A stretch of 64,000 nucleotides of DNA from a virus (IMGVR_UViG_3300033072_001087:50816-114815), one strand, 5' to 3'. Positions 2,063 to 54,663 are shown, counted from the first letter of the stretch. Numbers and translations: made by a program. Notes: a model not told the origin generated them from the sequence alone.

Positions 2063-2073
2063 GAGAAAACCCC

Positions 2074-10926: not shown

Positions 10927-12122
10927 AAATCCTCTTCTACACCCCGACAGTCGGGCGCGGCGGCGTACATCGCGTCGTGGAAACCGTCTTGGCGCAAATT
11001 GTCAAACAGTATCCACAGCACACCTATCATGCTTTAGGGCAGCGCTACAACGAAGTTGGCGATAAAGTCAAATATCCGTGTGCGCTTACACAGATTCGCC
11101 CGGTCAAGAAGCTGCCAGATCACCCGGAACAATTCAAGTTCTTACTCGACAACGCGGACGTGTTTTATCAGCACTTAGCCGAAATTGCGCCCAAGTACGA
11201 TCTGATTTACGCGCCGTCGATCTGGTGGGGGCTTCCGAAAGGGGAGTGGGAGATCACTACGCCGTTGGTTGCGACTATCCCCGATTTCGCTTTCGACATC
11301 ATGAATATGGGGTCGATTGCGCAGCACTTTCGATCGGTGATCCGAAAACTTGGCGAATTCAGCAACACACTCGTCGTCCACAGCCGCTATTGGCAGCAGC
11401 ACGCGCAGCAAACCTACGGCACTCAAAACATCGAAGTTATCGAACATACGCGTGATTTCCTGAGTAAATCGTTCGATTACTCGTTCGCGGAAGGCGTACG
11501 GGTAAGAGAGAAATACGGGCTGCCGAACGAATATGTCTTGGCGTTTCATTGCTATGGACACAAAGACCCGATCACGATTTTGCACGGGCAGTTGTATGCG
11601 CGTTCGCGCTCGCCGTATGTGCCGCCATTGGTGATCGCCGGACTTGAAACCGAACAATACGTAGAGGGCGCGCCCATAAAAGGCGGAGCCGAGTCTCACG
11701 TACATGAGGTTCGACGAGCTATTCGCGAGATTAAGGCGACGCTTGGGCGCGACTTGTGGATCCTTGGCAAGTTACCGGATGAGGATATTGGCGGCTTATA
11801 CGCGATGGCGATGTGTGCGGTTTCCGCGTCGGTCTCGGAGGGCGACTTGCCGGGAACTGCGTTTGAGGCAATTGAGTCGCGCACGCCGTTCATTTGTTCC
11901 GATTTTCCGATTTTCACCGAAAAGCTGGGTGAAGACTGCGCGTGGATTTTCCCGCGCCGCAATGCGAACAAGTACGGGCAAGCGCTGATCGAGTGCGTCG
12001 AAAATCGCGAAGAAGCGCTTCGCCGTGTCAACAATGCACTAGAGCGTACCGGTAAGCGCTCGGTAAAAGACGTGGCAGCCGAGTACATGACTCTATTTGA
12101 AAAGGCGGTCAGTGATGTATAG
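10923..12122 (+). CDS. Glycosyltransferase family 1 (GT4-type).
   Basis: N-terminal MKILFYTPTVGRGGVHRVV (GT4 N-domain) and C-terminal E..GTAFEAIESRTPFICSD (E-x7-E-like) motif. Confidence 0.75.
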   Translation: MKILFYTPTVGRGGVHRVVETVLAQIVKQYPQHTYHALGQRYNEVGDKVKYPCALTQIRPVKKLPDHPEQFKFLLDNADVFYQHLAEIAPKYDLIYAPSIWWGLPKGEWEITTPLVATIPDFAFDIMNMGSIAQHFRSVIRKLGEFSNTLVVHSRYWQQHAQQTYGTQNIEVIEHTRDFLSKSFDYSFAEGVRVREKYGLPNEYVLAFHCYGHKDPITILHGQLYARSRSPYVPPLVIAGLETEQYVEGAPIKGGAESHVHEVRRAIREIKATLGRDLWILGKLPDEDIGGLYAMAMCAVSASVSEGDLPGTAFEAIESRTPFICSDFPIFTEKLGEDCAWIFPRRNANKYGQALIECVENREEALRRVNNALERTGKRSVKDVAAEYMTLFEKAVSDV

Positions 12123-39636: not shown

Positions 39637-40170
39637 ATGAAAAGGTTCATGCAGCGTTACGCCGAAGGACGCACTTGGTTCGCTTTGTTTACGCGTGATA
39701 GCGACAGCCCACAGCCCTTTGCCATTGTTGATATACGCGACTCTGCGCTCTTGCGTAACTTCTTTTCGCGTGCATTTTCGCAGTATAACCACCGACTGAT
39801 TTCAGATTCGCTGATGCACTACATTGAACAGAGTGAATGGGATCGGCAAGGCTATTTTGACGCCATTATCCGCGTCGGTCGCCGCCACCCAAGTCGATCA
39901 CAAATGTTCCTACTGTCCTATGCGGCAACCCATACGGGATGGTTTCGCTTTCCCGAAGAAATGCGCGCCGACGTTTCCACTAAGAGCCTGTTTGTCTGCA
40001 CGGAACGGGGTTGGATGGCATGGAACGATGGCAACTATCGCATTACATCGGAAGGGCGTCGCGTCCTAAGAAATGCAATCCTAGATGAACGAGATCGAGA
40101 AAAATCAAGCCGGGATAAACGCCGCGCTCGGCAAAATCGCCAACGCGGCGGCGCAGGCGACAGCACTTGA
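39637..40170 (+). CDS. Hypothetical protein with basic C-terminal tail.
   Basis: 177-aa ORF. C-terminus RDKRRARQNRQRGG. Confidence 0.35.
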   Translation: MKRFMQRYAEGRTWFALFTRDSDSPQPFAIVDIRDSALLRNFFSRAFSQYNHRLISDSLMHYIEQSEWDRQGYFDAIIRVGRRHPSRSQMFLLSYAATHTGWFRFPEEMRADVSTKSLFVCTERGWMAWNDGNYRITSEGRRVLRNAILDERDREKSSRDKRRARQNRQRGGAGDST

Positions 40171-41080
40171 CACCTACAAATTAGACCTTGCCCCAAATAC
40201 ATTGGATCGTCAACGGCGCGATTTGTCGCTCTTTGCGGATTACTTGATGGGAAAAGGGATGCGCGTCGGCGATCTGTTCAACAGCGCCGAGGCGTGGCGT
40301 GGTATTACGTGGGGATTGGTCAAGGGGTTCGGGTTGTGGATGCAGCACAAGGGATACGCGTTGGGTTCGGTTGCGGTTAGATTTGCAACCGTCAAGCGCT
40401 ATGCCGCGCTTGCTGTACAATCTGGAATAATCGACGCAAATGAGGGCGCATTGATTAAATCCTTGCGCCCCTTTACGAACACACGCAATGTCGATGCAAA
40501 ACGCGCCAGAACACGTCTGGGCGCGAAAAAAGCCCATTCTACAGACTTGACGTTAGAGCAGCGAAAAACCCTCAAAGAACGCGCCTCCTCTACCCCACAA
40601 AGCGCGTGTTACGCCCTGCTCATGTGTTTACTTCTTGATCACGGTCTTAGAGTATCGGAGGTCATTCTGCTTACTGACGCGAACGTAGACACTACCCTGT
40701 GGACTCTCAGTTTCTATCGTCCAAAGGTTGATCGTCACGATATTCACCGCATGACGCAAGACACAATCCATGCTTACTTAGCCTACAAACCGTTTATAAT
40801 AGAAGGCGAGAAGCTGCTGCGTCAATCAGAACGCGGCGGCGCATTAGGCAAGCCCGGATTAACGCGTGGCGGCGTCGAACAAATCGTCAAACGACTTGGG
40901 AAAAACATCGGGGTCCCATCGCTCTCGCCCCATGATTGTCGGCATTCTTGGGCAACAGAATACGAGAAGAAACACACGCCGTTTGAACTGCGCGACGCAG
41001 GGGGCTGGAACAGCTTGGATATGCCAAATCGCTATGTCAACCGAAAACGAATCAGCAATCAAGGAGAGGACTTGGAATAA
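40085..41080 (+). CDS. Tyrosine recombinase / phage integrase.
   Basis: C-terminal catalytic region HDCRHSWATEY...GGWNSLDMPNRYV (R..H..R..Y). N-terminal SAM-like core-binding region. The true start may be downstream of 40085. Confidence 0.8.
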   Translation: MNEIEKNQAGINAALGKIANAAAQATALDTYKLDLAPNTLDRQRRDLSLFADYLMGKGMRVGDLFNSAEAWRGITWGLVKGFGLWMQHKGYALGSVAVRFATVKRYAALAVQSGIIDANEGALIKSLRPFTNTRNVDAKRARTRLGAKKAHSTDLTLEQRKTLKERASSTPQSACYALLMCLLLDHGLRVSEVILLTDANVDTTLWTLSFYRPKVDRHDIHRMTQDTIHAYLAYKPFIIEGEKLLRQSERGGALGKPGLTRGGVEQIVKRLGKNIGVPSLSPHDCRHSWATEYEKKHTPFELRDAGGWNSLDMPNRYVNRKRISNQGEDLE

Positions 41081-42483: not shown

Positions 42484-43257
42484 TCAAGCAAAGTTATCTG
42501 CGAACATTGGCAGCGTGTAGGCAACGGATAGCCGCTTACGTGCTGTTACCGAGTGAACTGGCGAATTATCCCCAAGAATGTACCGTCGTCCCGTGTTCCG
42601 CGCAGCGACGCCGGTAGTGCCGCTGCCGCACGTTGGGTCTAAGACGACATCGCCAGATAGCGTATAGGTTCGTATAAGATACTCGATCAAGCTAACAGGC
42701 TTTTGCGTCGGATGCAGCCCGGTTTCGTTCGCAAATTGATGAACGGTCTTCGGGTATCTCCACCCCTCGTTGACTGTACCGAGCAAATCGAACTTGCCGT
42801 AGTTGGTCGTCTTGCCTTTCGTCTTTGCCTTGTACGGCGTTCCAGCTTCCATTTGCGGGAAATATACCGGTTCTTTCCGAGAGAAAATCAGAATGTTCTC
42901 GTGTGAGCGAAGCGGACGGCGGTTCGCATCCAAGAAGCCGCTTCCGCGCGGCTTCTCCCAAATCATCTCGTAGCGAAATAAGTCGAGTGCGCTCATAACC
43001 AACATACTCGTGAATGGTTGAGATCCGGTGAGCGCAATTACGCCGTCCGACTTGATGATGCGGCGGAAACGCCGCCACATCGGTTCAAGCGGAATCAGCG
43101 TATCCCAACTGTTTTGCGTTACCGCGTAGGGTAAATCTGCGAAGATGAAATCGACAACGACTCCCGCCTCGTAAATCCAGTCGCACAGCGAGAACAGGTC
43201 CAGAAAATGAACCGCGTTGAATAGATCTGAGGCCGTCCGCGCTGGCAGCAGGTTCAC
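42484..43257 (-). CDS. DNA methyltransferase (N4/N6 class).
   Basis: FADLPY-type motif IV and VLDPTCGSGTTGVAA motif I. Confidence 0.7.
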   Translation of the reverse strand: MNLLPARTASDLFNAVHFLDLFSLCDWIYEAGVVVDFIFADLPYAVTQNSWDTLIPLEPMWRRFRRIIKSDGVIALTGSQPFTSMLVMSALDLFRYEMIWEKPRGSGFLDANRRPLRSHENILIFSRKEPVYFPQMEAGTPYKAKTKGKTTNYGKFDLLGTVNEGWRYPKTVHQFANETGLHPTQKPVSLIEYLIRTYTLSGDVVLDPTCGSGTTGVAARNTGRRYILGDNSPVHSVTARKRLSVAYTLPMFADNFA

Positions 43258-43266
43258 GATAGCGTC

Positions 43267-44397
43267 CTAACGGTTGAGGCTCATCGGCATGATCACGCAA
43301 ACGAGTCCGTCATAGCTTTCTGGGCGAATCACCACCGGATGCGCCGCGCCGTGAGTCTCCAGAATAATGCGCTCGCTGTCGATGATATTCAGCACGTCGA
43401 TCAAGTAGCGAATGTTATACGCCACTTCCAGCGCTTCCCCTTCGACTCCGGCGTCGATCATGCCCTCACTATCACCGCGTTCGGCGCTGCGTCCCAAGAT
43501 CGATAACTGTCCCGGTTCACTGGGGCTGGCAGGCGGTTGTGCGATGAATCGCGCGCTGAAGTTGTTGTCGCGCGCAAAAATTTCGGCTCGCTTGCATTGA
43601 TTGAGCAGTTCATCGGCATATACCGTTATCGATGTACTGTAGGTTTTTGGAACAATAGCGTTGAAGTCTGGGAATTTACCGCTGATCAATTGCGACGTAA
43701 TGATCGTGCTTTCGTAATAAAACGCCACACCCTCTCGTTCATCGAGCATGGATAGTCCAAGCGGCCGCTCTTCATCGGTAATCACACGCGCTACTTCCGC
43801 TAACGTTCTTGCGGGAATGATCATCGGTTCACTTTCAGCGGACTCGTCAATTTGACTTGTCCGAACTGACAGACGATACCCATCCGCTGAAGTCATTGTC
43901 AGCGCGTTATTGCCGAACTGAGTATAGATGCCACCCAAAACAGGGCGAGAGTCTTCCTTCGCCGCAGCAAAGACTGTTTGCGTAATCATCTGCTTGAATA
44001 CGCCGGATGGTAGTTGTACGGACGCCCCTTTTGTTTCAGGAATCGGAGGGAATTCTGACGCCGCAATGCCCTTGATGTTCGATTTGGTCGTACCACAGCG
44101 GACATTAACCGTTTGCGTTTGCGCGTCAAGTATTAGATCGACTCGTTCAGATGACAGGTTATTGACTAATTCAGCGAATGTCTTAGCGGGAAGCGTAATC
44201 GCGCCGGGAACATCGATTTTCGCACCGACATAGGTTGTGATGCTCATTTCGAGGTTCGTTGCGACGAGTTTGAGGCGGGCATCTTCGGTCATCAACAGCA
44301 CGTTCGCCAAGACCGGCAGAGTCGGACGCGACTCGACAGCTTTGGCGACAATACTTAATCCTCTGGCGAGCTGATCTTGCAAGATTGAAACACGCAT
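43267..44397 (-). CDS. dnaN: DNA polymerase III beta subunit (sliding clamp).
   Basis: 376 aa. N-terminus MRVSILQDQLARGLSIVAKAV...PVLANVLL and the three-domain clamp pattern. Confidence 0.8.
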   Translation of the reverse strand: MRVSILQDQLARGLSIVAKAVESRPTLPVLANVLLMTEDARLKLVATNLEMSITTYVGAKIDVPGAITLPAKTFAELVNNLSSERVDLILDAQTQTVNVRCGTTKSNIKGIAASEFPPIPETKGASVQLPSGVFKQMITQTVFAAAKEDSRPVLGGIYTQFGNNALTMTSADGYRLSVRTSQIDESAESEPMIIPARTLAEVARVITDEERPLGLSMLDEREGVAFYYESTIITSQLISGKFPDFNAIVPKTYSTSITVYADELLNQCKRAEIFARDNNFSARFIAQPPASPSEPGQLSILGRSAERGDSEGMIDAGVEGEALEVAYNIRYLIDVLNIIDSERIILETHGAAHPVVIRPESYDGLVCVIMPMSLNR

Positions 44398-45242
44398 TAC
44401 GTTGACTCCTCATTGATTGTTAGGTTCGCGAACATCGGTAGTGTTCGGATTGGATCGTAATTCATCCACAGCGATTCCATCTTCTGCTTTGGCGTCCCTG
44501 TGCCGCTAACTGTATTTACGGCAAAGTCCCTGCGCGTATACCCGTTTAAAGCGGAATACAACGCATTATCGTAGCCGCTCAAAATGACATATGCCTTCTT
44601 GATCGCGTTTAAAGCGGCGACCAACCGTTCGTGATGCGCATCATCAACATCATTTTCATACCGCGCTTCGGTCCGCGTCGATAAAACATATGGCGGATCA
44701 AGATAAATCAACGTCCGTTCGCGGTCAAATTCGCCGATCAGTTCCAGTGCGTCGCGGTTGGTCACAATGACCGTCGATAGCCGCGCGTGTAATTCCGGCA
44801 TTTCATCGACCGATGACAGGAAATCGCTGACCGACTTGCTCGTATTACGGCGAACGGTTGTGTTGATTGAGAACCCCCCAATGCCATTATGCCGTGTCCG
44901 ATTGACGTACCAGAAACGGAATGCGCGCTCAACATCATCCAATTCGCCGCGCAGCGATACGCGGTACTCGTTCGATGTGCTTTCGTCATAGAGCGCTAAC
45001 TGACACAGGCGATAAAATTCCGCGAACAACGCCTCATCGCGCAGCACTTTGAATAAGGCGTAGACATTCCGATTCACGTCGTTGTAGAGTTCAATCGGAA
45101 CGCGCGGCTTGTTGAGCAGAACAACGCCGCTTCCGCCATACGCATCCACGAACGTGTCGTATAAGGACTCGTCAGGGAAATAAGACAACAATTGCGCGAT
45201 CATGCCGCCTTTTCCGCCAAAATACTTGACCGGTGCGTTCAT
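44397..45242 (-). CDS. dam: DNA adenine methyltransferase (Dam-like).
   Basis: KYFGGKGGM (motif I region), DAYGGSG, YLDPPYVLSTR (DPPY). Start placed at MNAPVKYFGGKG. Confidence 0.75.
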   Translation of the reverse strand: MNAPVKYFGGKGGMIAQLLSYFPDESLYDTFVDAYGGSGVVLLNKPRVPIELYNDVNRNVYALFKVLRDEALFAEFYRLCQLALYDESTSNEYRVSLRGELDDVERAFRFWYVNRTRHNGIGGFSINTTVRRNTSKSVSDFLSSVDEMPELHARLSTVIVTNRDALELIGEFDRERTLIYLDPPYVLSTRTEARYENDVDDAHHERLVAALNAIKKAYVILSGYDNALYSALNGYTRRDFAVNTVSGTGTPKQKMESLWMNYDPIRTLPMFANLTINEEST

Positions 45243-45562
45243 TTTGTATCTAGTAATTTTGGCATGTACAGCGCGTGTTTGCCCATCACCCATCCATCCG
45301 GCATCGCGAAGATTTTTATCTTAATCGCCCAATCCGCAAACGCTTTTGCCTCAAGCAGCATCTTGATCTTGCCATCATCAAGGTTGGTTGCAGTTTGTGC
45401 TGCAAACAAGAGAAGCAAGCAGTACGATGCGCGCCAATAGACCATTTCGCGCCACGCTTTAAACCAGCGGTAAAGCAAGTACAATGGCACAAGAAATATC
45501 GCGAAGAACCACCCAACATCCGCGTTCATGAAGGCTGTCCAATCGATAATGCTGGCGTTCAC
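45239..45562 (-). CDS. Small membrane protein.
   Basis: Hydrophobic segment DVGWFFAIFLVPLYLLY. Confidence 0.3.
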   Translation of the reverse strand: MNASIIDWTAFMNADVGWFFAIFLVPLYLLYRWFKAWREMVYWRASYCLLLLFAAQTATNLDDGKIKMLLEAKAFADWAIKIKIFAMPDGWVMGKHALYMPKLLDTK

Positions 45563-45960
45563 TCGATCGATTCCTTTGCGTAATAGCGTGCGATCATCGC
45601 GTCCGTCTTACCAGTCTCATCGATGATACCGGCGCGTTTGCCGTATATCATGTGATATGGCTTACGCGTACTCAAATCAAGATAGACCGGTGTATTCCGC
45701 GCGCCGAAATAGTCGCCGTAGCCGATAATCGGACCTTGCTCATGTTTCTTGAATCGCTTCGCCGCTGGCTGCGTCGATGCTTCAATGGCCACCTGCTTGA
45801 CCGCCTCGATAAAATCGGGGTGTCGTAATGTGCGATAGACCGACTCGATGACGTTTTCCCAGACAATCGGGATTTGTTCGCCCCGCTCATCGTATGCCGC
45901 ACCGACAATACCCAATCCGATCGCCAATTTCATTGTGTTTACAGCGTCATGATGCTTCAT
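45559..45960 (-). CDS. Hypothetical protein. Start moved to MKHHD to avoid overlap with the ligase.
   Basis: ORF. A possible H..HD..D HD-like motif, but too weak to call. Confidence 0.25.
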   Translation of the reverse strand: MKHHDAVNTMKLAIGLGIVGAAYDERGEQIPIVWENVIESVYRTLRHPDFIEAVKQVAIEASTQPAAKRFKKHEQGPIIGYGDYFGARNTPVYLDLSTRKPYHMIYGKRAGIIDETGKTDAMIARYYAKESIE

Positions 45961-47029
45961 CGTTACCCTCTGTGCGTTCCTTGAAAGCATTGCGGTAGAT
46001 AATAGGTTCAATCGACTTTCCCGACTTAAGCGCAAACAAATACCCATGTACATCTTTCGGGTAATTTGCTTGTACCCACAGCGCGAAGTCCCGTTGAGTT
46101 CCGCTCGGCGCAATTGATATTGCGTCCACGCACTCGTTTGTGATGCGTGTTACTGTTTCATCTATCTCTCTTTTCCAAGCACGAATTTGATCAAGGAACT
46201 CGTCTGGTACGCCATCAATTAGCTGCTCGTATTTGTCTTGCGCAACCGCATCAAGGATTCGGTTAAAGCTGCATCCCGTCAAAATGCGATGAGCCATTAC
46301 ATACGCATCCCCCTTGACTTTAAGACGCATATTGTCCGAATAGCGCAGCACCCAGCCCTCCTCATTCGCACTTAAAGATTGCGCCGCATTCAAAATGTCA
46401 TCTATACTATCGAAGGTGTAGGTTCGCGGACGCATAAACCCATACGCATTTGCTATAACATCTAATTCAGCCGCATAAAGCTCGTGACCTAATTGAATAT
46501 TGCGCCCGCCAAGCAGCACAACACCCTCGTAATCGCCGTAATTTACGACGATGCGGTTTTCTGGATAGATGATTTCAAATAACAGCGTAACCCTGCTGTC
46601 AAATGCGAAATTGGGATGATGTTGTTGAAACCATGCGCTCGCCCATTGTGCTTGAGCGCCGGTGAACGATCCGCGCGTTGCCATTTTCCATTGATCGTTG
46701 TGGAAATACAAAATACCAAGCGAACCATCCATCTTTTCCGTTATCTCGATCAAACGAGCGCCCGGCATAGGAAAGATTTGTCCGTAATTCCAGAACTTTG
46801 AGAACGGACGGGCTATGCACTCGCCGTTCTGAGTGTTAAAAATCAGCCCTCGTGAATTCGCTTCGAACCAGTTCCATCCTGACGGCGGCTTAAATTGTGC
46901 TGCTTGGGTGTAGTTGAATAACACTAACCCGTCGTGGTATGTAGCTGATACCTCTCCATACTGGCTCCAATCTTGTTCGCCGCGCTGGATTAACGACTGT
47001 ATATCGCCCAAGGACCGGATACTATTCAT
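45947..47029 (-). CDS. ATP-dependent RNA/DNA ligase-family nucleotidyltransferase.
   Basis: ITEKMDGSLG is the KxDG lysine-adenylylation motif I. 360 aa. Confidence 0.5.
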   Translation of the reverse strand: MNSIRSLGDIQSLIQRGEQDWSQYGEVSATYHDGLVLFNYTQAAQFKPPSGWNWFEANSRGLIFNTQNGECIARPFSKFWNYGQIFPMPGARLIEITEKMDGSLGILYFHNDQWKMATRGSFTGAQAQWASAWFQQHHPNFAFDSRVTLLFEIIYPENRIVVNYGDYEGVVLLGGRNIQLGHELYAAELDVIANAYGFMRPRTYTFDSIDDILNAAQSLSANEEGWVLRYSDNMRLKVKGDAYVMAHRILTGCSFNRILDAVAQDKYEQLIDGVPDEFLDQIRAWKREIDETVTRITNECVDAISIAPSGTQRDFALWVQANYPKDVHGYLFALKSGKSIEPIIYRNAFKERTEGNDEAS

Positions 47030-47820
47030 GATGCTCCCCCAAATAAGCTCAATTGCACAACGCCGTCTTTAAGCGGCTTATCCGTAGGAAATTCGGCGAT
47101 GCGCCGGTTTGCCATTTCGACATATTTTCCAGAACGATCGCAGCCTAAGAAACAACGCTTGTGTTTAAGCGCGGCTTCAGCAACCGTTCCGGATCCCATA
47201 TACGGATCAAGGATAACTTGCGCATTCGTCGTGCGAATGCAGCGGCTTGCCAATTCCAGCGGAAATGGCGCGGGATGTTCGGTACCAGAGGCTTGTGGAA
47301 TATCCCACACATCCGTCAACCCGGACGATCCTTCGACAAACGTAAAATCAGCCATCGCGATGATGTAAATGACCTCATAGCTAGGCAAGAAATAACCACG
47401 ATTGTGATTGACTCCACCAGATCGCCGCCAAATAATAATCTGACGCAGCGGCGCATCACCGATGATCTTTTCAGCGTGACGTTGGTATAACCCATTCTGC
47501 ACGCGCCACTTGTGGTTGTAGAATATGACCCCTGTTTTCGGGTTAATCACACGCAGCAGTTCGCGCATCACCTGCCGCTGCCAGTCAATGTACTCATCTT
47601 CCGGCAAATCGTCTGCGTAGCCGTCGTAGCCATTTGTGACTAATTCGCCATGCCATCCCGAAAGCGGCGGATGCTTGAATGAATTGCCGCTGCTGTTGCG
47701 GATATTGTATGGCGGCGAAGTCACGACCGAGTCAACAAAACCATCGGGAATTCGCTTAAGGTAATCTAAATCTTTCTCAACAGAAATTGTATTAAGTTGC
47801 GGTGGGAGTACCATCAGCAT
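47026..47820 (-). CDS. DNA methyltransferase (N4/N6 class, ParB-less).
   Basis: VVTSPPYNIRN motif IV and DPYMGSGTVAEAA motif I. Confidence 0.8.
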   Translation of the reverse strand: MLMVLPPQLNTISVEKDLDYLKRIPDGFVDSVVTSPPYNIRNSSGNSFKHPPLSGWHGELVTNGYDGYADDLPEDEYIDWQRQVMRELLRVINPKTGVIFYNHKWRVQNGLYQRHAEKIIGDAPLRQIIIWRRSGGVNHNRGYFLPSYEVIYIIAMADFTFVEGSSGLTDVWDIPQASGTEHPAPFPLELASRCIRTTNAQVILDPYMGSGTVAEAALKHKRCFLGCDRSGKYVEMANRRIAEFPTDKPLKDGVVQLSLFGGAS

Positions 47821-48421
47821 CGATCCGTCTTAGCTTGTACGTCGGGTAAGTACGTGTACATTCTGGAAAGCGAATATACGCTACATCGTCATCAACTCTA
47901 AAGATTTCACCGCTTGCGCCATCGAACGGCGCTACGCGGACCACATCCCCCACCATCACATGGGACTCAAGGTTATTCTTCACAGTCAGCGTTTCTAGTG
48001 GCAAATCAACTGCCGAACCGGACACCGAGACTAACGCCGATGTGCCGCGCACATCAAGTACACGGCACAAAATCCTTGCCGACTTGCCTTCAATCAAAGA
48101 ATCCGCGTACACATAAGCCCCGATCTCGATAAAGCCGATTTTGGGGTTGATGTCGCGCTCCACGAAATCGCGCAGCATCGCCTCGATCCGAAGCAGTTCC
48201 CCTTCTTTTCGGGTGTATACGCCAAGTCCGACCATCTTCACCAGCGCGCGAATGCGCCCGATCAAATATCCGCGCCGAAACGACTGCCCATCGTGTCTGC
48301 TTAACTTTACCTTATTTTTGCGCTGCCAGAGCGTTAATATCCGCTCTGGCGTCATCTCGCGCGCATTTCTGACAAACATCTCGCCGATGTCTTCGGCGAT
48401 TTTTTGGTACGTCTTCCGCAT
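47792..48421 (-). CDS. Hypothetical protein.
   Basis: 209-aa ORF. Confidence 0.35.
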   Translation of the reverse strand: MRKTYQKIAEDIGEMFVRNAREMTPERILTLWQRKNKVKLSRHDGQSFRRGYLIGRIRALVKMVGLGVYTRKEGELLRIEAMLRDFVERDINPKIGFIEIGAYVYADSLIEGKSARILCRVLDVRGTSALVSVSGSAVDLPLETLTVKNNLESHVMVGDVVRVAPFDGASGEIFRVDDDVAYIRFPECTRTYPTYKLRRIDADGTPTAT

Positions 48422-48428
48422 CGGTCAG

Positions 48429-48803
48429 CTAGTTCGTATACTTCGGCTTGGGCGCATTTTGCGCCATCTGCGCGCCTGTGACTGACGTGACCGCCTGTGC
48501 CAACGCAAACTCGACCTCGGTCTCGTAAATCATCTGCAGTAGCTCAAAGAGCGCTGACACGCGTGTCGCTTCCATGTCGTATTCGGCGATCGGCTCCCAT
48601 TCCACTTCATCGTTGAACACGAATGGAAGATACTCCCCGTCTCGTTCGACAAAGTTCACGTAACGGAACTTGTCTCCGTCCCGCTGTTCCACGATGTCAA
48701 TAAACTCGTCTGCGACTGGTACGCGCGCGATCAACAACCCGTGCGGGAATGTGTTTGGCGCTACCGGATTTCCAAGTTCTCCGCTTGCGTTCTGGTTATC
48801 CAC
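48429..48803 (-). CDS. Hypothetical protein, paralog A of a tandem pair.
   Basis: GELGNPVAPNTFPHGLLIARVPVADEFIDIVEQRDGDKFRYVNFVERDGEYL is a paralog of the next ORF. Confidence 0.4.
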   Translation of the reverse strand: MDNQNASGELGNPVAPNTFPHGLLIARVPVADEFIDIVEQRDGDKFRYVNFVERDGEYLPFVFNDEVEWEPIAEYDMEATRVSALFELLQMIYETEVEFALAQAVTSVTGAQMAQNAPKPKYTN

Positions 48804-49138
48804 TATGCACCAAACCCCTTGAGAATTTTTGCCATGCCCATCACAACGCTGTTCGCTTCATTGACCGACTTGCTCACAACCGACGCCATCGCCGCGTCCA
48901 GCATATGCCGATCCATCTTCTCAACCAGTTCTTGTGGGATGTCCATCGCTTGTTCTGTACGAATGTACTTGCCGTCTCGACCGCACACATAAACGTGGTA
49001 AGCCGGTTCGTTTTCGTCACCCTCGTCGATCAGATCGATAAATCCGGTGAATACGCTCTGGATTCTCGCTACCAATCTACCGCAGGGGTGCGTTTCGCGC
49101 TGCGCCGGTGTACCGATTTCGCCTATGTCAAAGTTCAT
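48803..49138 (-). CDS. Hypothetical protein, paralog B of a tandem pair.
   Basis: GEIGTPAQRETHPCGRLVARIQSVFTGFIDLIDEGDENEPAYHVYVCGRDGKYI aligns with the previous ORF. Confidence 0.4.
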   Translation of the reverse strand: MNFDIGEIGTPAQRETHPCGRLVARIQSVFTGFIDLIDEGDENEPAYHVYVCGRDGKYIRTEQAMDIPQELVEKMDRHMLDAAMASVVSKSVNEANSVVMGMAKILKGFGA

Positions 49139-49575
49139 TGCGTTTTCTCCTGTGTGAATATATCGTCAATTGACTCGCCGCATAACCGGATCGCCGCATA
49201 TAAGATCAACATTCCGGGTACGTACTTCCTGCGTTTGCCTAGTCCGATGGCGGAGGCTGTCTCTCTCAATCGCTTTCCCATCTGCGCCTGCAGCCCACGA
49301 ATGACACGCTTGTCTTCCGGTTCCATCCGCACGGATAAACGCCTGTAATCGTAGGCTGCACGGCTGTAATCCAGAAACAAGCCCGTGATCACGTCGCTAT
49401 CGGCGGTGAGAAACAGATTACGCTTGTCGCACTCAATCAGACAACGGCGAATGATCGCCTCTTTAGGAACAAGCCGCATCCCAATCGCCTCGAATTGAGG
49501 GCGAATTGCAGTGCCAACTTTCTCTAACGCCTCGTCGATCTTGGAATCGACGTAGTACCACGTTTTACTTACCAT
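49135..49575 (-). CDS. Hypothetical protein.
   Basis: 146-aa ORF. Confidence 0.35.
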   Translation of the reverse strand: MVSKTWYYVDSKIDEALEKVGTAIRPQFEAIGMRLVPKEAIIRRCLIECDKRNLFLTADSDVITGLFLDYSRAAYDYRRLSVRMEPEDKRVIRGLQAQMGKRLRETASAIGLGKRRKYVPGMLILYAAIRLCGESIDDIFTQEKTQ

Positions 49576-49624
49576 ACCTTACCCTACTGTTTAGAGGGAA
49601 TTATAGCACACGGTAGCATGAATT

Positions 49625-50143
49625 TCAAGGGTGAGGTTGATTGAATGTCAAGGCAAAAAAGGCGTCGGCGTCAATGTAGTTCGTTCCACCATTTTCTGCG
49701 GCTAGCTTATCCTCAATGCGATCACCGATGTAGACCGTTTCTTTGAGGTCGTACCCCAGCTTCTTTGCCAGAAAATGCAGCATTCCCGGCATTGGCTTCC
49801 GCCACTGCGGATCGAGCGAGAATCCATGTTCAGGGTGGTTGAGAGCGTACTGCATCTGTCGCGTATAAGCAACGGATGGATGCCACAGCGCCGCAGCGAA
49901 AGCATCAGCGTTCACCAATACGGATAGCGCCGATAGCTTGAGCAAGACATCGCCAAGCGTGACATAGCCGAGCGAAACCCCTGCTTGGTTCGTCGCAATG
50001 GCGATGGCGTTTCGCTTTGAGAGCCGACGGACCGCGCCTACGCGGTTGTAGTAGATGCTTTCCCCGAAAGACTTACCCGTGAGCGGCTTTGCGTTTTTCG
50101 AGTGTGCTAACGTGCCATCGAGATCAAAGATGTAAAGCATGGT
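49625..50143 (-). CDS. HAD-superfamily phosphatase.
   Basis: MLYIFDLDGTL (motif I DxDGT), and a late IGDRIEDKL...D motif. The N-terminal 150 aa of the track ORF are judged non-coding. Confidence 0.6.
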   Translation of the reverse strand, partial: TMLYIFDLDGTLAHSKNAKPLTGKSFGESIYYNRVGAVRRLSKRNAIAIATNQAGVSLGYVTLGDVLLKLSALSVLVNADAFAAALWHPSVAYTRQMQYALNHPEHGFSLDPQWRKPMPGMLHFLAKKLGYDLKETVYIGDRIEDKLAAENGGTNYIDADAFFALTFNQPHP

Positions 50144-50190
50144 GCCTCGTTTCTGGCGGATGCGTAGTGCATCCGCCAGTGCGTGTGTTC

Positions 50191-50391
50191 TTATTTCTTG
50201 ATACTGACTGAAACAAGCGGCTTTGATAGGCGGATGATGAGTAGCCATGCGATGAGCGCAATAGCACCCCAAAGCGGATTGACGCCAAATGTCCAGATCA
50301 CGATCGCCCATCCGATGATCCCGATAGACAGCATCACGCCAAGAAAAATCACGAATAGCGCCACGAATAACAACCCAAACAGCGTCTTCAT
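50191..50391 (-). CDS. Small two-TM membrane protein.
   Basis: 66 aa, two clear hydrophobic helices. Immediately downstream of the SPFH gene. Confidence 0.4.
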   Translation of the reverse strand: MKTLFGLLFVALFVIFLGVMLSIGIIGWAIVIWTFGVNPLWGAIALIAWLLIIRLSKPLVSVSIKK

Positions 50392-50402
50392 GACAGACTC
50401 CT

Positions 50403-51695
50403 TTAAGCCGGAGGTGTTGGCGAGACAGGAACGGCGGTCGGTGCAACAGGCGGAATGAACGGCATGACGCTATCGCTGTCCATGATGTCCGGCAGCTGTC
50501 CGTCCCATCGGCGCACAGCTTCCAGATAGATCGAGTCTGGGTTCTCTGCAAGCGCTTCGGCTTGTGCGCGCTGGACTTCGGCATTCGCCTGCCCAGCAAT
50601 CACAGTCGCGGTTGCTGCGGCTTGACCACTGACAACGAGCGCATTGTTATAGATCGCAGTCTGTGTCGCACCAGCAATCGCTGCATTTTGTTGTTCCTCG
50701 CGGATGTAGGACTCGTCAATCGCCTCTTGGATGCGAACATTGTCATAAACCAACCCATTCATGCCGCCCAAGACTTCAATGGTAATGCCGTCCTGTGCAA
50801 ATGCGGCCGCCACTTCTGTGCGTGCGATTTCCCAAATCATCGATTTTTCACGCTGTGCCTGATCGACCGTGCGCTGCCCAAACTCGCGATCCAGAACCAC
50901 CTGCACGCGATCACGCACAACCGAGTCCAGCACCGAACCGAGATCGCGCGCATAGCGAACAGTCGCAAGCGGATCGCTAACCGCAATCGTCCCGTAGTGC
51001 GCCAGATACAGCGCGGCGTCTTCGGCGGCAATACGCGCGGTAATCACCGCGCCCACTGCGATCCCTTGACTATCGACGCTCTCAACCATCAACGCTTCGA
51101 CGGAGTCGGCGTCTTGACCGGGCAGGATTTGTGTCCACTCGCGCGATACTTCGGTTAGCGGCACAAGAATAACCGTGTGACTCGGACGCCAGACGCCCGG
51201 CAGATCAAGGAATCCGCCTGTCTTTACCCATGAACGCGTGATCGGAATCTGTGGACGAAGATCGCTCAAGTTTTCCCAATACTGTTCATTATGTTCGATT
51301 TCGCTGGCGTCATCAATGCCAGCCGTCAGACTTACCGTAAATGCAGCATAATTCGACTCGACCGCCACAAATTCGCGCGGCGGCGAACATGCGCCAGCAC
51401 CAATCGCGACAATCAATACCACCGCAGACAACACGACCGATTTGGCGAACCGCTTGATCAGCGGCACCAGCACATCGATCGCTTGAAATAGAAACGCCAC
51501 AATCACCGACAGCCCAACGATATTGAGCAGCACGTTTTGAATGGCATAACGCGATGCTTCGACTTCACTGTAATTCCCTCGCGCACCTTCGATGGTGAGC
51601 CGCGCCGCCGCTTCCGTCATGCTTGGCATCACAATGCCGTAGATGATGAGCATGACCAAAAGTAACACTGCCAGAATTCCCGCTTTGCGCATCAT
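50403..51695 (-). CDS. SPFH/band-7 (stomatin/HflKC-like) membrane protein.
   Basis: N-terminal TM ILAVLLLVMLIIYGIV, then an SPFH-like core and an Ala/Gln-rich C-terminal coiled coil (AIAGATQTAIYNNALVVSGQAAATATVIAGQANAEVQRAQAEALAENPD). ATGA coupling to the upstream gene. Confidence 0.45.
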   Translation of the reverse strand: MMRKAGILAVLLLVMLIIYGIVMPSMTEAAARLTIEGARGNYSEVEASRYAIQNVLLNIVGLSVIVAFLFQAIDVLVPLIKRFAKSVVLSAVVLIVAIGAGACSPPREFVAVESNYAAFTVSLTAGIDDASEIEHNEQYWENLSDLRPQIPITRSWVKTGGFLDLPGVWRPSHTVILVPLTEVSREWTQILPGQDADSVEALMVESVDSQGIAVGAVITARIAAEDAALYLAHYGTIAVSDPLATVRYARDLGSVLDSVVRDRVQVVLDREFGQRTVDQAQREKSMIWEIARTEVAAAFAQDGITIEVLGGMNGLVYDNVRIQEAIDESYIREEQQNAAIAGATQTAIYNNALVVSGQAAATATVIAGQANAEVQRAQAEALAENPDSIYLEAVRRWDGQLPDIMDSDSVMPFIPPVAPTAVPVSPTPPA

Positions 51696-52188
51696 TCGAT
51701 TATCTCCAGACCTTTTCTCTTGTACAAGTCGATACGTTGTTCGGTCCACGCGTGCCGATCCAGCACGCGGCATACCCTATTTCGGATGTCATCGGCGTAA
51801 TACGACCACAATGACCATTCGTCCCGTTCATCCAGCACCAGCACACATGATGAGGCGGACAAGTCCGGTGTCAGCAGTAATTCAGCCTCACAGGATTGCG
51901 CCGGATGAATGATTTGCCACGCATCCCCCCGGAAATTGAGGTTGGTTCCGCGCTTGTAGTGCGTGATTTCGCCTGTTTCGTGCAGCGCGCACAAGCGCTT
52001 GTGCCAGCGGAAATACGCCGTCCAATCCTTCGCATATAGGTCAATATCGCCATAGAAGTCCGCTTGCCCTGTCAGCCACAGCGGATAGCCCCCTGCGATC
52101 ATCAAGCCGCTGCCGACCATTTCGCGCAGCAGCGGCTCGTGTCGAATGGCGCGGCGCAATTCAAGGCGTTCGATCTGTCCGTTCGCCA
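51692..52188 (-). CDS. Minimal nucleotidyltransferase-fold protein.
   Basis: GGYPLWLTGQADFYGDIDLY is a G[GS]-x9-13-DxD NTase motif. Start at 52188 with a ggag RBS. Confidence 0.4.
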
Positions 52189-52487
52189 TTGCATTCTCCG
52201 TAGTACAGCACTTGGTATTCCCGCGCTCTCCACGCGTTTTGCATGATATACGCCCCGTCATTCCGCTTGTACACGATGTATTGACGATTGAACGACGAAT
52301 CGACGCTGATAATTTGCGGGACTCCGTTTTCAATGCACACATCGTCAAGAATTGGCGTTCCGCGACTATCGCCGCTATTAGGCGGAAGCAAGATAATAAC
52401 CGTGATAAACACGGCGACCGCAAGAACTACCCCAACAAGAGCAGGGAATAGATCGTGCGCGATTAGACGCCGCAGCATTTTTCTCAT
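52161..52487 (-). CDS. Small protein with N-terminal TM anchor.
   Basis: ALVGVVLAVAVFITVIILL. Confidence 0.3.
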   Translation of the reverse strand: MRKMLRRLIAHDLFPALVGVVLAVAVFITVIILLPPNSGDSRGTPILDDVCIENGVPQIISVDSSFNRQYIVYKRNDGAYIMQNAWRAREYQVLYYGECNGERTDRTP

Positions 52488-53536
52488 TGCCACCACTTCC
52501 AATCGACGCGCGTGATGTTCAGCGGCACAAATTCGCGCTGCCAACCGAGTTCGTCGTACATCACGCGGTCAAAAAGCGCGAACAATTGTTCAGGCTTGTA
52601 CAGCCGCGCGTGCTTGTCCGCCAACGTACATGCCCTGAAGTATTTGACCATCGGTTCGGGCATATCCTGACACGCCCAAAGCATACACTTCGCCGCCATG
52701 TAAATATCGCTGGCAGGTACGGTATCGGTACTCCCAAGCAGCGTTTCGGTCGGATAAAAGTTCTCCCACCGGTCGATCATGTACGAGAACTTCGCGCCCG
52801 CCTCGACCGCGCATGTCCAGTCGATCAGGTAGCCGCGATGCTGTCCGCCGCCACCGATGCCACCGGGTTTGAGCAGGATGTTATCCGGCACTACCGCCCC
52901 GTGCAAGTAGCCAAAGGCGTGCGGGATGGTCAGCGCAGCCAGAACCCGCCGCCAGATCCACGAAATCGCTTTCACAGGAACATGACGATCATAGATGTCA
53001 GCAAGCGTTGTCAGCGAAATCAGTTCATCGCCCTTCACATCATCGCTGTAGGCGAGAATGTGATAGTAGCCGTCGTCGTCCATGTCGCTTTCGACGAGGC
53101 GCGGAATGTACTTGAACGCTTCGCCTTCGTACAACGGCAGCGCGTTGATCCGGTTTAGGATGGCTTCTTCGCGGTCGAACAAGTCTTTGTCGCCGGTGAG
53201 AAGCCGTTTTGTGACCGTCCCATCCGCATTCAACGTGACGGACGCGATTTCGCCGACGCCGAGCATGTGTGAATCATCTTCGACCCACAGCTCATATTTC
53301 GCGTTCAAGTCGGCGATGAAGTCCTCCGCCAGCCCGTACACTTCCTTGTCGCCCATGTGTGCATCGGGGTGATAGGACTTCACAAGCCGCCGCCGAACGT
53401 CGTCAATTTGCGCTTCGACGTTCCCAAAAACCATCGCCGGTGTCGATTGGCGCATCTGTGCGTGCAGTGAACGCAGTTGATCGCGTACGGGCAATTGCTG
53501 AAAAGTTTGCAGGTTCATGTGCGACTCCATTCGCAT
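52484..53536 (-). CDS. J-domain (DnaJ-like) fused to a protein-kinase-like fold.
   Basis: RRRLVKSYHPDAHMGD carries the HPD tripeptide of J-domains. YLHGAVVPDNILL resembles the kinase catalytic loop (HRDLKPENILL, with the Asp replaced), and YLIDWT is DFG-like. Confidence 0.4.
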   Translation of the reverse strand: MRMESHMNLQTFQQLPVRDQLRSLHAQMRQSTPAMVFGNVEAQIDDVRRRLVKSYHPDAHMGDKEVYGLAEDFIADLNAKYELWVEDDSHMLGVGEIASVTLNADGTVTKRLLTGDKDLFDREEAILNRINALPLYEGEAFKYIPRLVESDMDDDGYYHILAYSDDVKGDELISLTTLADIYDRHVPVKAISWIWRRVLAALTIPHAFGYLHGAVVPDNILLKPGGIGGGGQHRGYLIDWTCAVEAGAKFSYMIDRWENFYPTETLLGSTDTVPASDIYMAAKCMLWACQDMPEPMVKYFRACTLADKHARLYKPEQLFALFDRVMYDELGWQREFVPLNITRVDWKWWQ

Positions 53537-54663
53537 ACGCGCCGTCCATGCCCCATGATTTTCACGGGAGCGAATGCGGCGACTTCGATTAGCTCAACCA
53601 ATGACTTCAGCGAGTGTACTTCGATGTAGTCTTTCATTCCGATTCGATCTGTTCCGCGCAAATCGATAACATTCCATAGCTGTTCTGGATTGAATCGATC
53701 AACATGCGACAATGCGATTTCGTGAATGCCGCCCAGAATGTTGTCTGCGGCGTAACGCAGCAGCTTGCGGTCAAGCCAGCCAACGCGCCATGCTCCTTGT
53801 AGTTCCGGTAGTCCGTCGTGATTGTGTCGCTCGACTATTGCCTTACGATCGAGCATATGACTCTCTGACGGGAACGGTCCAACGCCATGCCGCGTGGCAT
53901 AGATGCGGGTTACGCCAACCCGCTTGACCTGTGTGCCGGACGGAATCATCTCCAGAGCGCCTGAAAATGTCGTATCGCTCGACGTGACATATGGGCGATA
54001 GCCGCGATCGCAATCCAACAGCGCTCCTTGTGCGCCTTCAAAGATAACGTGATCAAAGCCGCCGAGTACACTTTCGTCCGAAACGGCGGTCACGACGTTA
54101 TTCAATGCGTCGATCAAATCATCGCCGATTTCCCGATAGAAACTCTCCACCGGACAAATGCGCGCTTCAAGGTACTGCAGCTTCTCATAGACTCTTTGCG
54201 GATCGTTGATCAGATCGCATACGCGCAGCGCCATATCGGGATGGGTTTCTGCCCAGCGCTTCGTGGTGCCTACCCCATTCGCCGTCGTACCGCGCTTGTG
54301 TATGCTGGCGTTGATCAGCGACGTGTACTTGTGATACTCTGTCACGACCAACGCTTGCGGATGAACGATCAGCGCCGGATTTTCACCTAATAGGCGCAGC
54401 CGTTTGTATTCTGCCCACGCCTCGATCGGATCGAAACACACATGCCGACCAAGATACGTGGAAGCGCCCTCAAACGTGCCGCTTCCGAATTGACGGAAGG
54501 TGTGATGGCGAAAATCGTCCGATGTGACGTTGTGCGCAGCGTTCGCGCCACCGTTGTACCGCGCTACCATCTTAGCAGCGTGCTGGCGCGTCAAAAACGC
54601 GGTCGTCATGCCTTTACCTTCGTCGCCGAACCCAAGTCCGGCGACTACCGTTGCGCTTTTCAT
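53515..54663 (-). CDS. Adenylosuccinate synthetase homolog (PurA-like / possibly PurZ-like).
   Basis: GFGDEGKGMTTAFL (GDEGKGK P-loop), YNGGANAAHN (GGxNAGH), IFEGAQGALLDCDRGYRPYVTSSDTT (very close to PurA [25 protein letters not shown]), ATRHGVGPFPSE. At 382 aa it is shorter than bacterial PurA. Confidence 0.75.
   Translation of the reverse strand: MKSATVVAGLGFGDEGKGMTTAFLTRQHAAKMVARYNGGANAAHNVTSDDFRHHTFRQFGSGTFEGASTYLGRHVCFDPIEAWAEYKRLRLLGENPALIVHPQALVVTEYHKYTSLINASIHKRGTTANGVGTTKRWAETHPDMALRVCDLINDPQRVYEKLQYLEARICPVESFYREIGDDLIDALNNVVTAVSDESVLGGFDHVIFEGAQGALLDCDRGYRPYVTSSDTTFSGALEMIPSGTQVKRVGVTRIYATRHGVGPFPSESHMLDRKAIVERHNHDGLPELQGAWRVGWLDRKLLRYAADNILGGIHEIALSHVDRFNPEQLWNVIDLRGTDRIGMKDYIEVHSLKSLVELIEVAAFAPVKIMGHGRRVCEWSRT

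What the first reader, a model, noticed from the sequence alone, without database searches (positions are those of the whole stretch)
45947..50143. Possible RNA-repair gene set: KxDG ligase plus HAD phosphatase
The ligase-family nucleotidyltransferase (ITEKMDGS motif I) and a DxDGT HAD phosphatase are the two non-kinase activities of T4-type Pnkp/Rnl tRNA repair. That system counters host anticodon nucleases (PrrC/RloC-like defence). The kinase partner is not identified.
Basis: inference. Interest (0 to 1): 0.55.

Follow-up and report, generated by a model that had tools for sequence, protein, structure and literature searches.

The report
Phage RNA ligase beside unrelated phosphatase
This phage carries a genuine T4-type RNA-repair ligase, but the nearby phosphatase matches none of the phosphatase families known to work with such ligases, and no kinase was found, so a T4-style three-enzyme tRNA-repair set is not supported.

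Summary

The proposed link between them is weak. The genes are 2.6 kb and five genes apart, with the best promoter-like site of the region between them.

In a neighbour-joining tree of 85 ligase loci (80 viral contigs plus other fetched loci), 53 of 69 loci outside the window's clade have a P-loop polynucleotide kinase within 3 kb, often fused to a T4-type phosphatase domain. The window's ligase falls in a 16-member clade with none.

The HAD fails HAD_PNKP and gives no HAD_SAK hit. Its closest solved relatives are heptose-bisphosphate phosphatases (GmhB), with mammalian PNKP somewhat further away. Its PNK3P hit does not discriminate, because E. coli GmhB also hits that model. Fourteen other loci with this HAD family (10 viral, 4 cellular) have no RNA ligase or kinase.

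Verdict: a new member of a known ligase family, plus an orphan phosphatase with an unresolved substrate.

The parts
45947..47029 (-). Rnl1-family (T4 RnlA-like) ATP-dependent RNA ligase, 360 aa. Motif I is K99 (ITEKMDGS, 46721-46744), motif III E152, motif IV E224-G225, motif V K237/K239. The C-terminal part (about aa 241-354) is all helical.
49625..50140 (-). Stand-alone capless HAD-IIIA phosphatase, 171 aa. Motif I is FDLDGT, motif II TNQAG, motif III RKPxPGM, motif IV GDxxxD. It lacks the Cys/His Zn-binding loop of GmhB.
47026..47820 (-). N4/N6 DNA methyltransferase. Its TGA stop overlaps the ligase ATG (ATGA), so the two are probably co-translated.
   Evidence: PF01555 has E 1.9e-32. The overlap was read.
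47792..49575 (-). Four ORFs of unknown function (209, 124, 111 and 146 aa) between the HAD and the methyltransferase. The 124-aa and 111-aa products are paralogues. Three of the four ORFs, together with the HAD and the methyltransferase, recur in the same order in contig L007; the 111-aa ORF has no match there.
   Evidence: No Pfam or PHROG hits. Paralogy: 39% identity over 54 aa, E 3e-9. Synteny with L007.
49600..49628 (-). Best sigma-70-like site in 42-54 kb (TTGAAA-17-TATAAT with an upstream TG, 11 of 12 matches). It lies just after the HAD stop codon and ahead of the block that ends with the ligase.
   Evidence: This is a consensus match only, and the total number of sites in the region is not above the shuffled controls.
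45559..45960 (-). 133-aa ORF of unknown function. Its start overlaps the ligase stop by 14 nt. It is not conserved next to related ligases.
   Evidence: Gene call. No Pfam hit at E <= 10. No homologue in the loci of the closest ligase relatives.

Best explanation
These are two independently acquired accessory genes in the early (minus-strand) region of a temperate phage. The nearest cellular homologues of both proteins come mainly from Chloroflexota/Anaerolineae assemblies, so the host is probably from that lineage.

(1) The ligase is an active Rnl1-type RNA ligase. By analogy with T4 Rnl1, Lys99 is adenylylated by ATP, AMP is passed to an RNA 5'-phosphate, and a 3'-OH attacks to seal the break. 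The most likely substrate is a nicked tRNA or another structured RNA. The ligase belongs to a subclade that never has a neighbouring polynucleotide kinase in the loci sampled. It therefore most likely seals breaks that already carry 3'-OH and 5'-phosphate ends, or relies on end-healing enzymes encoded elsewhere. It is co-translated with a DNA methyltransferase, inside a block that carries several DNA methyltransferase genes, which are typically phage anti-restriction functions.

(2) The HAD is a magnesium-dependent phosphomonoesterase of an orphan HAD-IIIA subfamily. Its substrate cannot be assigned. It is not a dedicated partner of the ligase.

Shown here: family membership, conserved catalytic residues, folds, and the neighbourhood statistics. 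Inferred: enzymatic activity, the RNA substrate, and the counter-defence role.
For: Ligase identity:
- Pfam, PHROG and PDB matches.
- Catalytic residues invariant in 37 homologues.

RNA-repair context of the wider family:
- 52 related viral loci have a P-loop kinase within 4 kb of the ligase, usually within about 700 bp and always on the same strand.
- Two representatives were confirmed by Pfam as AAA_33 + HAD_PNKP.
- 12 loci have a metallophosphoesterase nearby.

Kinase-less clade:
- 0 of 16 loci have a kinase, against 53 of 69 elsewhere; Fisher p = 7.6e-9, not corrected for phylogeny.
- The closest relative (74% identity, locus L002) has no HAD and no kinase.
- Chromosomal relatives L092 and L093 also lack a kinase.

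HAD not a dedicated partner:
- HAD_PNKP scores 14.5 bits against a 27.6 cut-off, and there is no HAD_SAK hit.
- An HMM built from 20 phage Pnkp proteins finds nothing in the window at E <= 1e-3.
- GmhB is the closest solved relative by profile and by fold.
- None of the 80 viral ligase loci has this HAD family.
- None of 14 HAD-family loci has an Rnl1 ligase, a Pnk kinase or a metallophosphoesterase within 10 kb.
- Five genes and the best promoter-like site of the region lie between the two genes.
Against: - Four of the 16 kinase-less ligase loci carry some phosphoesterase or RNA-repair accessory gene: HAD_SAK_2 in L019, a metallophosphoesterase in L093 and L016, and RlaP plus Ro60 in L002. 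A pairing of phosphatase and ligase without a kinase may therefore be a real theme.
- Chloroflexota homologues of the HAD lie in a conserved cluster with RNA-related genes: a PIN-domain protein, cysS and a SpoU methylase.
- About 38 kb of the 114.8-kb source contig could not be examined.
Confidence: 0.55

Rival explanations
1. The HAD is the 3'-phosphatase (end-healing) partner of the Rnl1 ligase in a T4-like tRNA repair pathway that counters anticodon nucleases. The 5'-kinase would be encoded in the unseen part of the genome, supplied by the host, or not needed.
For: - Rnl1 relatives in phages usually sit next to end-healing enzymes.
- Stand-alone HAD phosphatases are described as components of phage RNA-repair systems (PMC7824862, read). 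One of these, HAD_SAK_2, lies 222 bp from a related ligase in L064 and 5.6 kb from one in L019.
- PNK3P is the HAD's best Pfam hit, and PNKP is a close structural match.
- The two genes are on the same strand, 2.6 kb apart, in the same early region.
Against: - The HAD belongs to neither RNA-repair HAD family (HAD_PNKP, HAD_SAK).
- The PNK3P model is also hit by a genuine GmhB.
- Co-occurrence is zero when tested from either gene.
- No kinase is present in the window or in 12 kb of flanks.
- A strong promoter-like site separates the two genes.
- Without a kinase, the 5'-OH ends left by PrrC- or RloC-type nucleases cannot be sealed. This follows from the established biochemistry of ATP-dependent ligases.
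Confidence: 0.25
2. The HAD is a small-molecule phosphatase that reprogrammes host metabolism and has nothing to do with nucleic-acid ends. Candidates are a GmhB-like sugar-bisphosphate phosphatase, a histidinol-phosphate-like phosphatase, or a nucleotide phosphatase. It could be linked to the phage's PurA-like nucleotide enzyme or to the glycosyltransferase in the structural module.
For: - Motif IV (GDxxxD) and the RKPxPGM motif resemble those of GmhB and HisB-N.
- Source databases label homologues as GmhB or histidinol-phosphatase-like.
- The phage also encodes a PurA-like enzyme and a glycosyltransferase.
Against: - All GmhB and HisB equivalog models score far below their cut-offs: 40.5 against 178, 24.4 against 149.6, and 12.1 against 443.
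- The Zn-binding Cys/His loop of GmhB is absent.
- No sugar-nucleotide pathway genes lie next to the HAD in any locus examined.
Confidence: 0.3
3. The ligase does not act in RNA repair here. It could have a non-catalytic morphogenetic role like the tail-fibre attachment function of T4 gp63, or it could act on DNA ends.
For: PHROG labels the family 'RNA ligase and tail fiber protein attachment catalyst'. No DNA ligase gene was recognised among the window's annotated proteins.
Against: - All catalytic residues are strictly conserved across the family, which indicates selection for enzymatic activity.
- The gene lies in the early and replication block, not in the structural block.
- Chromosomal homologues exist in bacteria that have no tail fibres.
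Confidence: 0.05

Closest known systems
Bacteriophage T4 RNA ligase 1 (Rnl1 / RnlA / gp63)
T4 polynucleotide kinase-phosphatase (Pnkp; Pfam AAA_33 + HAD_PNKP)
   Same: The window HAD has the same DxDxT acyl-phosphatase chemistry and HAD Rossmannoid core. Pnkp is the usual neighbour of related phage Rnl1 genes, for example Arthrobacter phage Seahorse gp81/gp82.
D-glycero-D-manno-heptose-1,7-bisphosphate phosphatase GmhB (HAD-IIIA)
   Different: The window HAD lacks the Cys/His Zn-binding loop. It scores far below the GmhB equivalog cut-offs. No heptose pathway genes are nearby.
Eukaryotic-type polynucleotide 3'-phosphatase (mammalian PNKP phosphatase domain; Pfam PNK3P, TIGR01664)
   Different: TIGR01664 scores 46.7 bits against a 107.65 cut-off. 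The profile alignment to PNKP covers only the N-terminal half. E. coli GmhB also passes the PNK3P threshold. There is no fused kinase or FHA domain.
'Swiss-army-knife' HAD phosphatases of RNA-repair systems (Pfam HAD_SAK_1/2)
   Same: These are stand-alone HAD phosphatases found near RNA ligases in phages (PMC7824862; L064 and L019).
   Different: The window HAD gave no hit to these models at E <= 0.1.

Membership tests
Rnl1 (T4 RnlA-type) RNA ligase | Covalent nucleotidyl-transferase motifs I (KxDG), III, IV and V, with the lysine nucleophile | tested here: met
   K99-x-D101-G102, E152, E224-G225 and K237-x-K239 align to T4 K99, E159, E227/G228 and K240/K242. They are invariant in 37 homologues.
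Rnl1 (T4 RnlA-type) RNA ligase | Family profile match above the curated threshold | tested here: met
   PF09511 scores 60.2 bits against 28.3, and phrog_562 has E 6.9e-54. The strict NCBIfam equivalog TIGR02308 is not reached (68 bits against 242), so this is a family member and not a T4 RnlA equivalog.
Rnl1 (T4 RnlA-type) RNA ligase | Fold closest to Rnl1/Trl1 ligases and not to DNA ligases or Rnl2 | tested here: met
Rnl1 (T4 RnlA-type) RNA ligase | Rnl1-specific C-terminal helical domain that confers tRNA specificity | tested here: inconclusive
Rnl1 (T4 RnlA-type) RNA ligase | ATP-dependent sealing of 3'-OH/5'-PO4 RNA ends | not testable with these tools
   This needs a biochemical assay.
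T4-type Pnkp/Rnl1 tRNA repair system | Polynucleotide 5'-kinase (P-loop, AAA_33-type) encoded with the ligase | tested here: not met
   The only P-loops in the window are in the terminase and DnaB. Kinase and Pnkp HMMs find nothing in the window or flanks. The protein-kinase-like ORF at 52484-53536 lacks the catalytic Asp. About 38 kb of the source contig was not seen.
T4-type Pnkp/Rnl1 tRNA repair system | T4-type HAD 3'-phosphatase domain (Pfam HAD_PNKP) | tested here: not met
   14.5 bits against a 27.6 cut-off, matching motif I only. No hit with an HMM of 20 phage Pnkp proteins.
T4-type Pnkp/Rnl1 tRNA repair system | Healing and sealing genes adjacent, or co-occurring across relatives | tested here: not met
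   The genes are 2.6 kb and five genes apart. None of the 80 viral ligase loci has this HAD. None of 14 HAD loci has an Rnl1 ligase.
HAD superfamily, subfamily IIIA | Motifs I-IV (DxDxT, S/T, K, GDxxxD) and the capless Rossmannoid fold | tested here: met
GmhB / histidinol-phosphatase (HisB-N) clade | Equivalog-level profile score and the Zn-binding CxH...CxC loop | tested here: not met
   NF006506 scores 40.5 against 178, TIGR00213 24.4 against 149.6, and TIGR01656 50.9 against 84.15. The cysteines of the YCPHH...CDCRKP segment are replaced, giving YALNHPEHGFSLDPQWRKP.
Eukaryotic-type polynucleotide 3'-phosphatase (PNK3P / TIGR01664) | A specific profile match that separates it from other HAD-IIIA enzymes | tested here: inconclusive
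   PF08645 is passed (42.1 bits against 22), but E. coli GmhB also passes it at 32.2 bits. TIGR01664 scores 46.7 against 107.65.
HAD_SAK (RNA-repair 'Swiss army knife' HAD) | Match to Pfam HAD_SAK_1 or HAD_SAK_2 | tested here: not met
   No hit at E <= 0.1. The positive controls L019 and L064 score 94 and 74 bits.

The most novel reading that the evidence does not exclude
The window's ligase may represent a kinase-independent branch of Rnl1 RNA repair. This clade has 0 of 16 loci with a Pnk kinase. In different genomes it would be paired with interchangeable, unrelated 3'-end phosphoesterases or end-processing enzymes: this orphan HAD-IIIA here, HAD_SAK_2 in L019, metallophosphoesterases in L093 and L016, and RlaP plus Ro60 in L002. 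That would imply a class of RNA damage, or of host defence nuclease, that leaves 5'-phosphate ends. Metal-dependent tRNA nucleases would be one example, and breaks with both 3'-phosphate and 5'-phosphate ends another. This differs from the 5'-OH / 2',3'-cyclic phosphate ends that T4 Pnkp and Rnl1 deal with.
Probability: 0.17. Interest if true: 0.6.

Novelty: new member of a known kind. Interest (0 to 1): 0.3.

Why it matters
Phage RNA ligases mark the arms race over tRNA cleavage by bacterial defence nucleases. Two results here are practically useful.

First, an Rnl1 gene next to any HAD gene should not be read as a Pnkp-type repair set. The Pfam PNK3P model is also hit by sugar-phosphate phosphatases, while the specific models HAD_PNKP and HAD_SAK do discriminate.

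Second, the data point to a sizeable Rnl1 clade in Chloroflexota-associated phages and genomes that never has a neighbouring kinase in the loci sampled. If that holds up, it raises a testable question: what kind of RNA ends do these ligases meet? The finding as originally stated, a T4-like repair module, is mostly ordinary and only half correct.

Tried and rejected
- Close relatives among isolated phages: megablast of 12 kb found none. The HAD has one weak tblastn hit in 50,697 phage records.
- Kinase search: P-loop regex, an HMM of 33 stand-alone phage kinases and an HMM of 20 Pnkp proteins were run over the window and the flanking loci L008, L009 and L010. The only P-loop matches in recognised proteins were in the terminase, DnaB and the PurA-like protein.
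- The J-domain-like / protein-kinase-like ORF at 52484-53536 was considered as the missing kinase and rejected. It has only weak similarity to Ser/Thr kinases (E 0.0017), and its catalytic loop reads HGAVVPDN, with the catalytic Asp replaced by Ala.
- ORF 51692-52189 was suspected to be a CCA-adding or RlaP-like nucleotidyl-transferase because of a GG...GDIDL motif. There is no support from Pfam at E <= 10, from the PDB, or from comparison with the RlaP of L002.
- The SPFH/Band-7 protein next to the HAD was considered as an RNA-repair scaffold. This idea rests on my recollection of Burroughs & Aravind 2016, which could not be opened. No SPFH homologue occurs in any other ligase locus, and no tRNA or tRNA-like RNA was found.
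- Attempts to reach the rest of the 114.8-kb source contig failed. Two exact-match scans of metagenome contigs found nothing.
- The genome-contig scan for the HAD family returned only nine loci, of which one was full length.
Full report
**Setting.** The window looks like a temperate tailed-phage genome.
- Terminase, portal and structural genes lie on the plus strand from about 5.8 to 42 kb. An integrase is at 40085-41080.
- A minus-strand early and replication block runs from 42 to 62 kb. It encodes three DNA methyltransferases, a DnaN clamp, the ligase, the HAD, an SPFH protein, a PurA-like enzyme, DnaG, DnaB and a RecT-like protein.
- There is no near-identical isolated phage.
- The same sequence occurs on a 63,988-bp Logan contig and on a 114.8-kb JGI contig.
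- The cellular homologues of both focal proteins that carry organism names come mainly from Anaerolineae and other Chloroflexota assemblies.

**Observation.** Both ORFs are real.
- The ligase (45947-47029, minus strand, 360 aa) carries ITEKMDGS at aa 96-103.
- The HAD ends at 49625.
- Five genes lie between them: an N4/N6 DNA methyltransferase whose stop overlaps the ligase start (ATGA), and four ORFs of unknown function, two of which are paralogues.
- The best sigma-70-like site in the region (11 of 12 matches, with an extended -10) falls just after the HAD stop. This is a consensus match only. It hints that the ligase block can be transcribed on its own.

**The ligase is an Rnl1-type RNA ligase.**
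- It passes Pfam RNA_lig_T4_1 (60.2 bits against 28.3) and matches PHROG 562 at E 6.9e-54.
- phmmer aligns it to T4 Rnl1 structures (E 4.7e-9). The alignment places K99/D101/G102 on motif I, E152 on motif III, E224/G225 on motif IV and K237/K239 on motif V, together with equivalents of T4 R54, K75 and F77.
- All of these residues are invariant or nearly invariant in 37 homologues.
The ligase call stands.
- The protein is not a T4 RnlA equivalog by NCBIfam's strict cut-off (68 bits against 242).

**What related ligases keep as neighbours.**
- A degenerate-pattern scan of IMG/VR found at least 570 viral relatives. The best 80 were fetched with 10-kb flanks.
- After naive ORF calling and all-against-all clustering, the commonest neighbour within 4 kb is a P-loop kinase, present in 52 loci. 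It is either a stand-alone protein of about 140 aa or a kinase-phosphatase fusion of about 285-345 aa. It is usually within about 700 bp of the ligase and always on the same strand.
- Pfam confirmed two representatives as AAA_33 + HAD_PNKP (157-160 bits). One is Arthrobacter phage Seahorse gp82, immediately downstream of its RNA ligase gp81.
- Other recurrent neighbours are metallophosphoesterases (12 loci), RlaP-like and CCA-adding nucleotidyl-transferases, and HAD_SAK_2 phosphatases.
- This matches the published description of phage RNA-repair systems: a ligase plus a kinase plus a phosphoesterase, where the phosphoesterase is a kinase-fused HAD or a stand-alone 'Swiss-army-knife' HAD (PMC7824862).
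- At the family level, the RNA-repair reading is therefore well founded.

**The window's ligase belongs to a clade without a kinase.**
- In a neighbour-joining tree of 85 ligases, the window groups with L002 (74% identity), L011-L020, L028, L045 and the chromosomal copies L092 and L093.
- Kinases were detected by the union of three methods. None of these 16 loci has a Pnk-type kinase anywhere in the fetched 10-kb flanks. Elsewhere, 53 of 69 loci have one within 3 kb (Fisher p = 7.6e-9).
- Caveats: the test is not corrected for phylogeny, the tree has no support values, and some flanks are truncated.
- No conserved partner replaces the kinase. Accessory genes appear sporadically: RlaP plus Ro60 in L002, HAD_SAK_2 in L019, and metallophosphoesterases in L093 and L016.
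- In the window itself, only the terminase and DnaB have P-loops within called genes.
- About 8 kb to the left and 4 kb to the right of the window add no candidate kinase.
- The protein-kinase-like ORF at 52484-53536 lacks the catalytic Asp.

**The HAD.**
- All four HAD motifs are present and invariant in its family.
- It passes the generic HAD-IIIA model (51.7 bits against 44.6). It fails every specific model: histidinol-phosphatase domain 50.9 against 84.15, DNA 3'-phosphatase 46.7 against 107.65, and GmhB 40.5 against 178.
- Its best Pfam hit is PNK3P at 42.1 bits. That model is not specific, because E. coli GmhB scores 32.2 bits, also above the threshold.
- The two Pfam families built for RNA-repair HADs do not recognise it. 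HAD_PNKP scores 14.5 bits against 27.6, and HAD_SAK gives no hit. Positive controls for both score strongly.
- A profile of the HAD family hits GmhB structures first (E 3.8e-13, full length). Mouse PNKP follows at E 1.2e-8, over the N-terminal half only.
- The GmhB zinc loop is absent.
- The HAD is therefore an orphan HAD-IIIA subfamily with more than 1,000 members at E <= 1e-5; the named members are mostly from Anaerolineae assemblies. Its substrate cannot be read from sequence or fold.

**Co-occurrence tested from the HAD side.**
- Fourteen other loci encode this subfamily: ten viral and four cellular.
- None has an Rnl1 ligase, a Pnk kinase, a Pnkp or a metallophosphoesterase within the fetched flanks.
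- None of the 80 viral ligase loci has this HAD.
- Only the 3.1-kb contig L007 repeats the order from the HAD to the methyltransferase. It ends before the position where a ligase would lie.
- In three Chloroflexota genomes the HAD follows a PIN-domain gene, cysS and a SpoU-type methylase. This is a housekeeping, RNA-flavoured context and is a hint only.

**Conclusion.**
- The ligase plausibly serves RNA, probably tRNA, break sealing.
- The evidence does not support a T4-like Pnkp/Rnl1 set. There is no kinase, the phosphatase is of the wrong HAD family, the pairing is not conserved, and the genes are not adjacent.
- I put about 0.55 on 'independent genes: a kinase-less Rnl1 that seals 3'-OH/5'-P breaks, plus an orphan phosphatase'.
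- I put about 0.25 on a genuine functional link between the HAD and the ligase.
- The small-molecule reading of the HAD overlaps with the first of these, so the confidences do not sum to one.
- The most interesting residue of the analysis is the kinase-less Rnl1 clade itself.

Noticed in passing
window 53515-54663 (-): A short (382 aa) PurA-like adenylosuccinate-synthetase homologue lies in the replication block. It scores 153 bits on the PurA model and 64.5 bits on the NCBIfam PurZ model, both below their cut-offs. Its best phage hits are the 'PurA-like / 2-aminooxy adenylosuccinate synthetase' genes of mycobacteriophage cluster C (36.6% identity). Whether it makes 2-aminoadenine (Z) DNA precursors was not resolved. 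No HD-type dATPase (DatZ) or MazG-type (MazZ) enzyme, the usual companions of PurZ, was seen among the annotated neighbours.
   Followed up: partly
window 52484-53536 (-): This 350-aa protein has an N-terminal J-domain-like segment (YHPD) fused to a protein-kinase-like domain. Its catalytic loop reads HGAVVPDNILL, with Ala in place of the catalytic Asp, so it may be a pseudokinase. It has weak hits to DMPK/MRCK kinases (E 0.0017) and to the MADS6 defence kinase model (E 3.9e-4). A DnaJ-domain protein also occurs in the HAD-bearing phage contig L006.
   Followed up: partly
window 50403-51773 (-) and 50191-50391 (-): A membrane-anchored SPFH/Band-7 protein (PF01145; phrog_200 'lipoprotein') is followed by a 66-aa membrane protein, directly upstream of the HAD. 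The small protein and the HAD recur together in L007. No SPFH homologue occurs in any other ligase locus.
   Followed up: partly
window 50155-50177 (-): A perfect 9-bp hairpin (GGCGGATGC-ACTAC-GCATCCGCC) lies in the 48-nt gap between the small membrane gene and the HAD start. No T-run follows it, so it is not a typical intrinsic terminator.
   Followed up: no
window 5807-7105 (+), 42484-43257 (-), 44397-45293 (-), 47026-47820 (-): The phage encodes four DNA methyltransferases: three of the N4/N6 type (PF01555) and one Dam-like D12 type. This suggests heavy investment in evading restriction.
   Followed up: partly
window 43267-44397 (-): The phage encodes its own DNA polymerase III beta sliding clamp (DnaN) alongside DnaB and DnaG, but no DNA polymerase gene was recognised in the window.
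   Followed up: no
window 10923-12122 (+): A glycosyltransferase (Glycos_transf_1, 399 aa) is embedded in the structural gene block just after the terminase and portal region. It may glycosylate virion proteins.
   Followed up: no
window 51692-52189 (-): This 165-aa ORF has a GG-x13-GDIDL motif reminiscent of Pol-beta/CCA-adding nucleotidyl-transferases. It has no support from Pfam, from the PDB, or from comparison with RlaP.
   Followed up: yes
L002 3949-7440 (contig Ga0558716_01072): The phage contig that carries the closest ligase homologue (74% identity) encodes an RlaP nucleotidyl-transferase and a Ro60/TROVE protein 2-5 kb upstream of the ligase. These are RNA-repair or RNA quality-control accessory genes, and they are absent from the window.
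   Followed up: partly
L094, L096, L105 (Chloroflexota genomes): Cellular homologues of the HAD sit in a conserved cluster: a PIN-domain membrane protein, cysS, a SpoU-type RNA methylase and then the HAD, with an acetyltransferase on the opposite strand.
   Followed up: partly
window 1739-3364 (-): An HNH endonuclease (1739-2062) and a GmrSD_N/DUF262-like protein (2849-3364) lie in the left-arm minus-strand block. A DUF5131 protein (4199-4894) there also recurs near related ligases in L002, L018 and L045.
   Followed up: no
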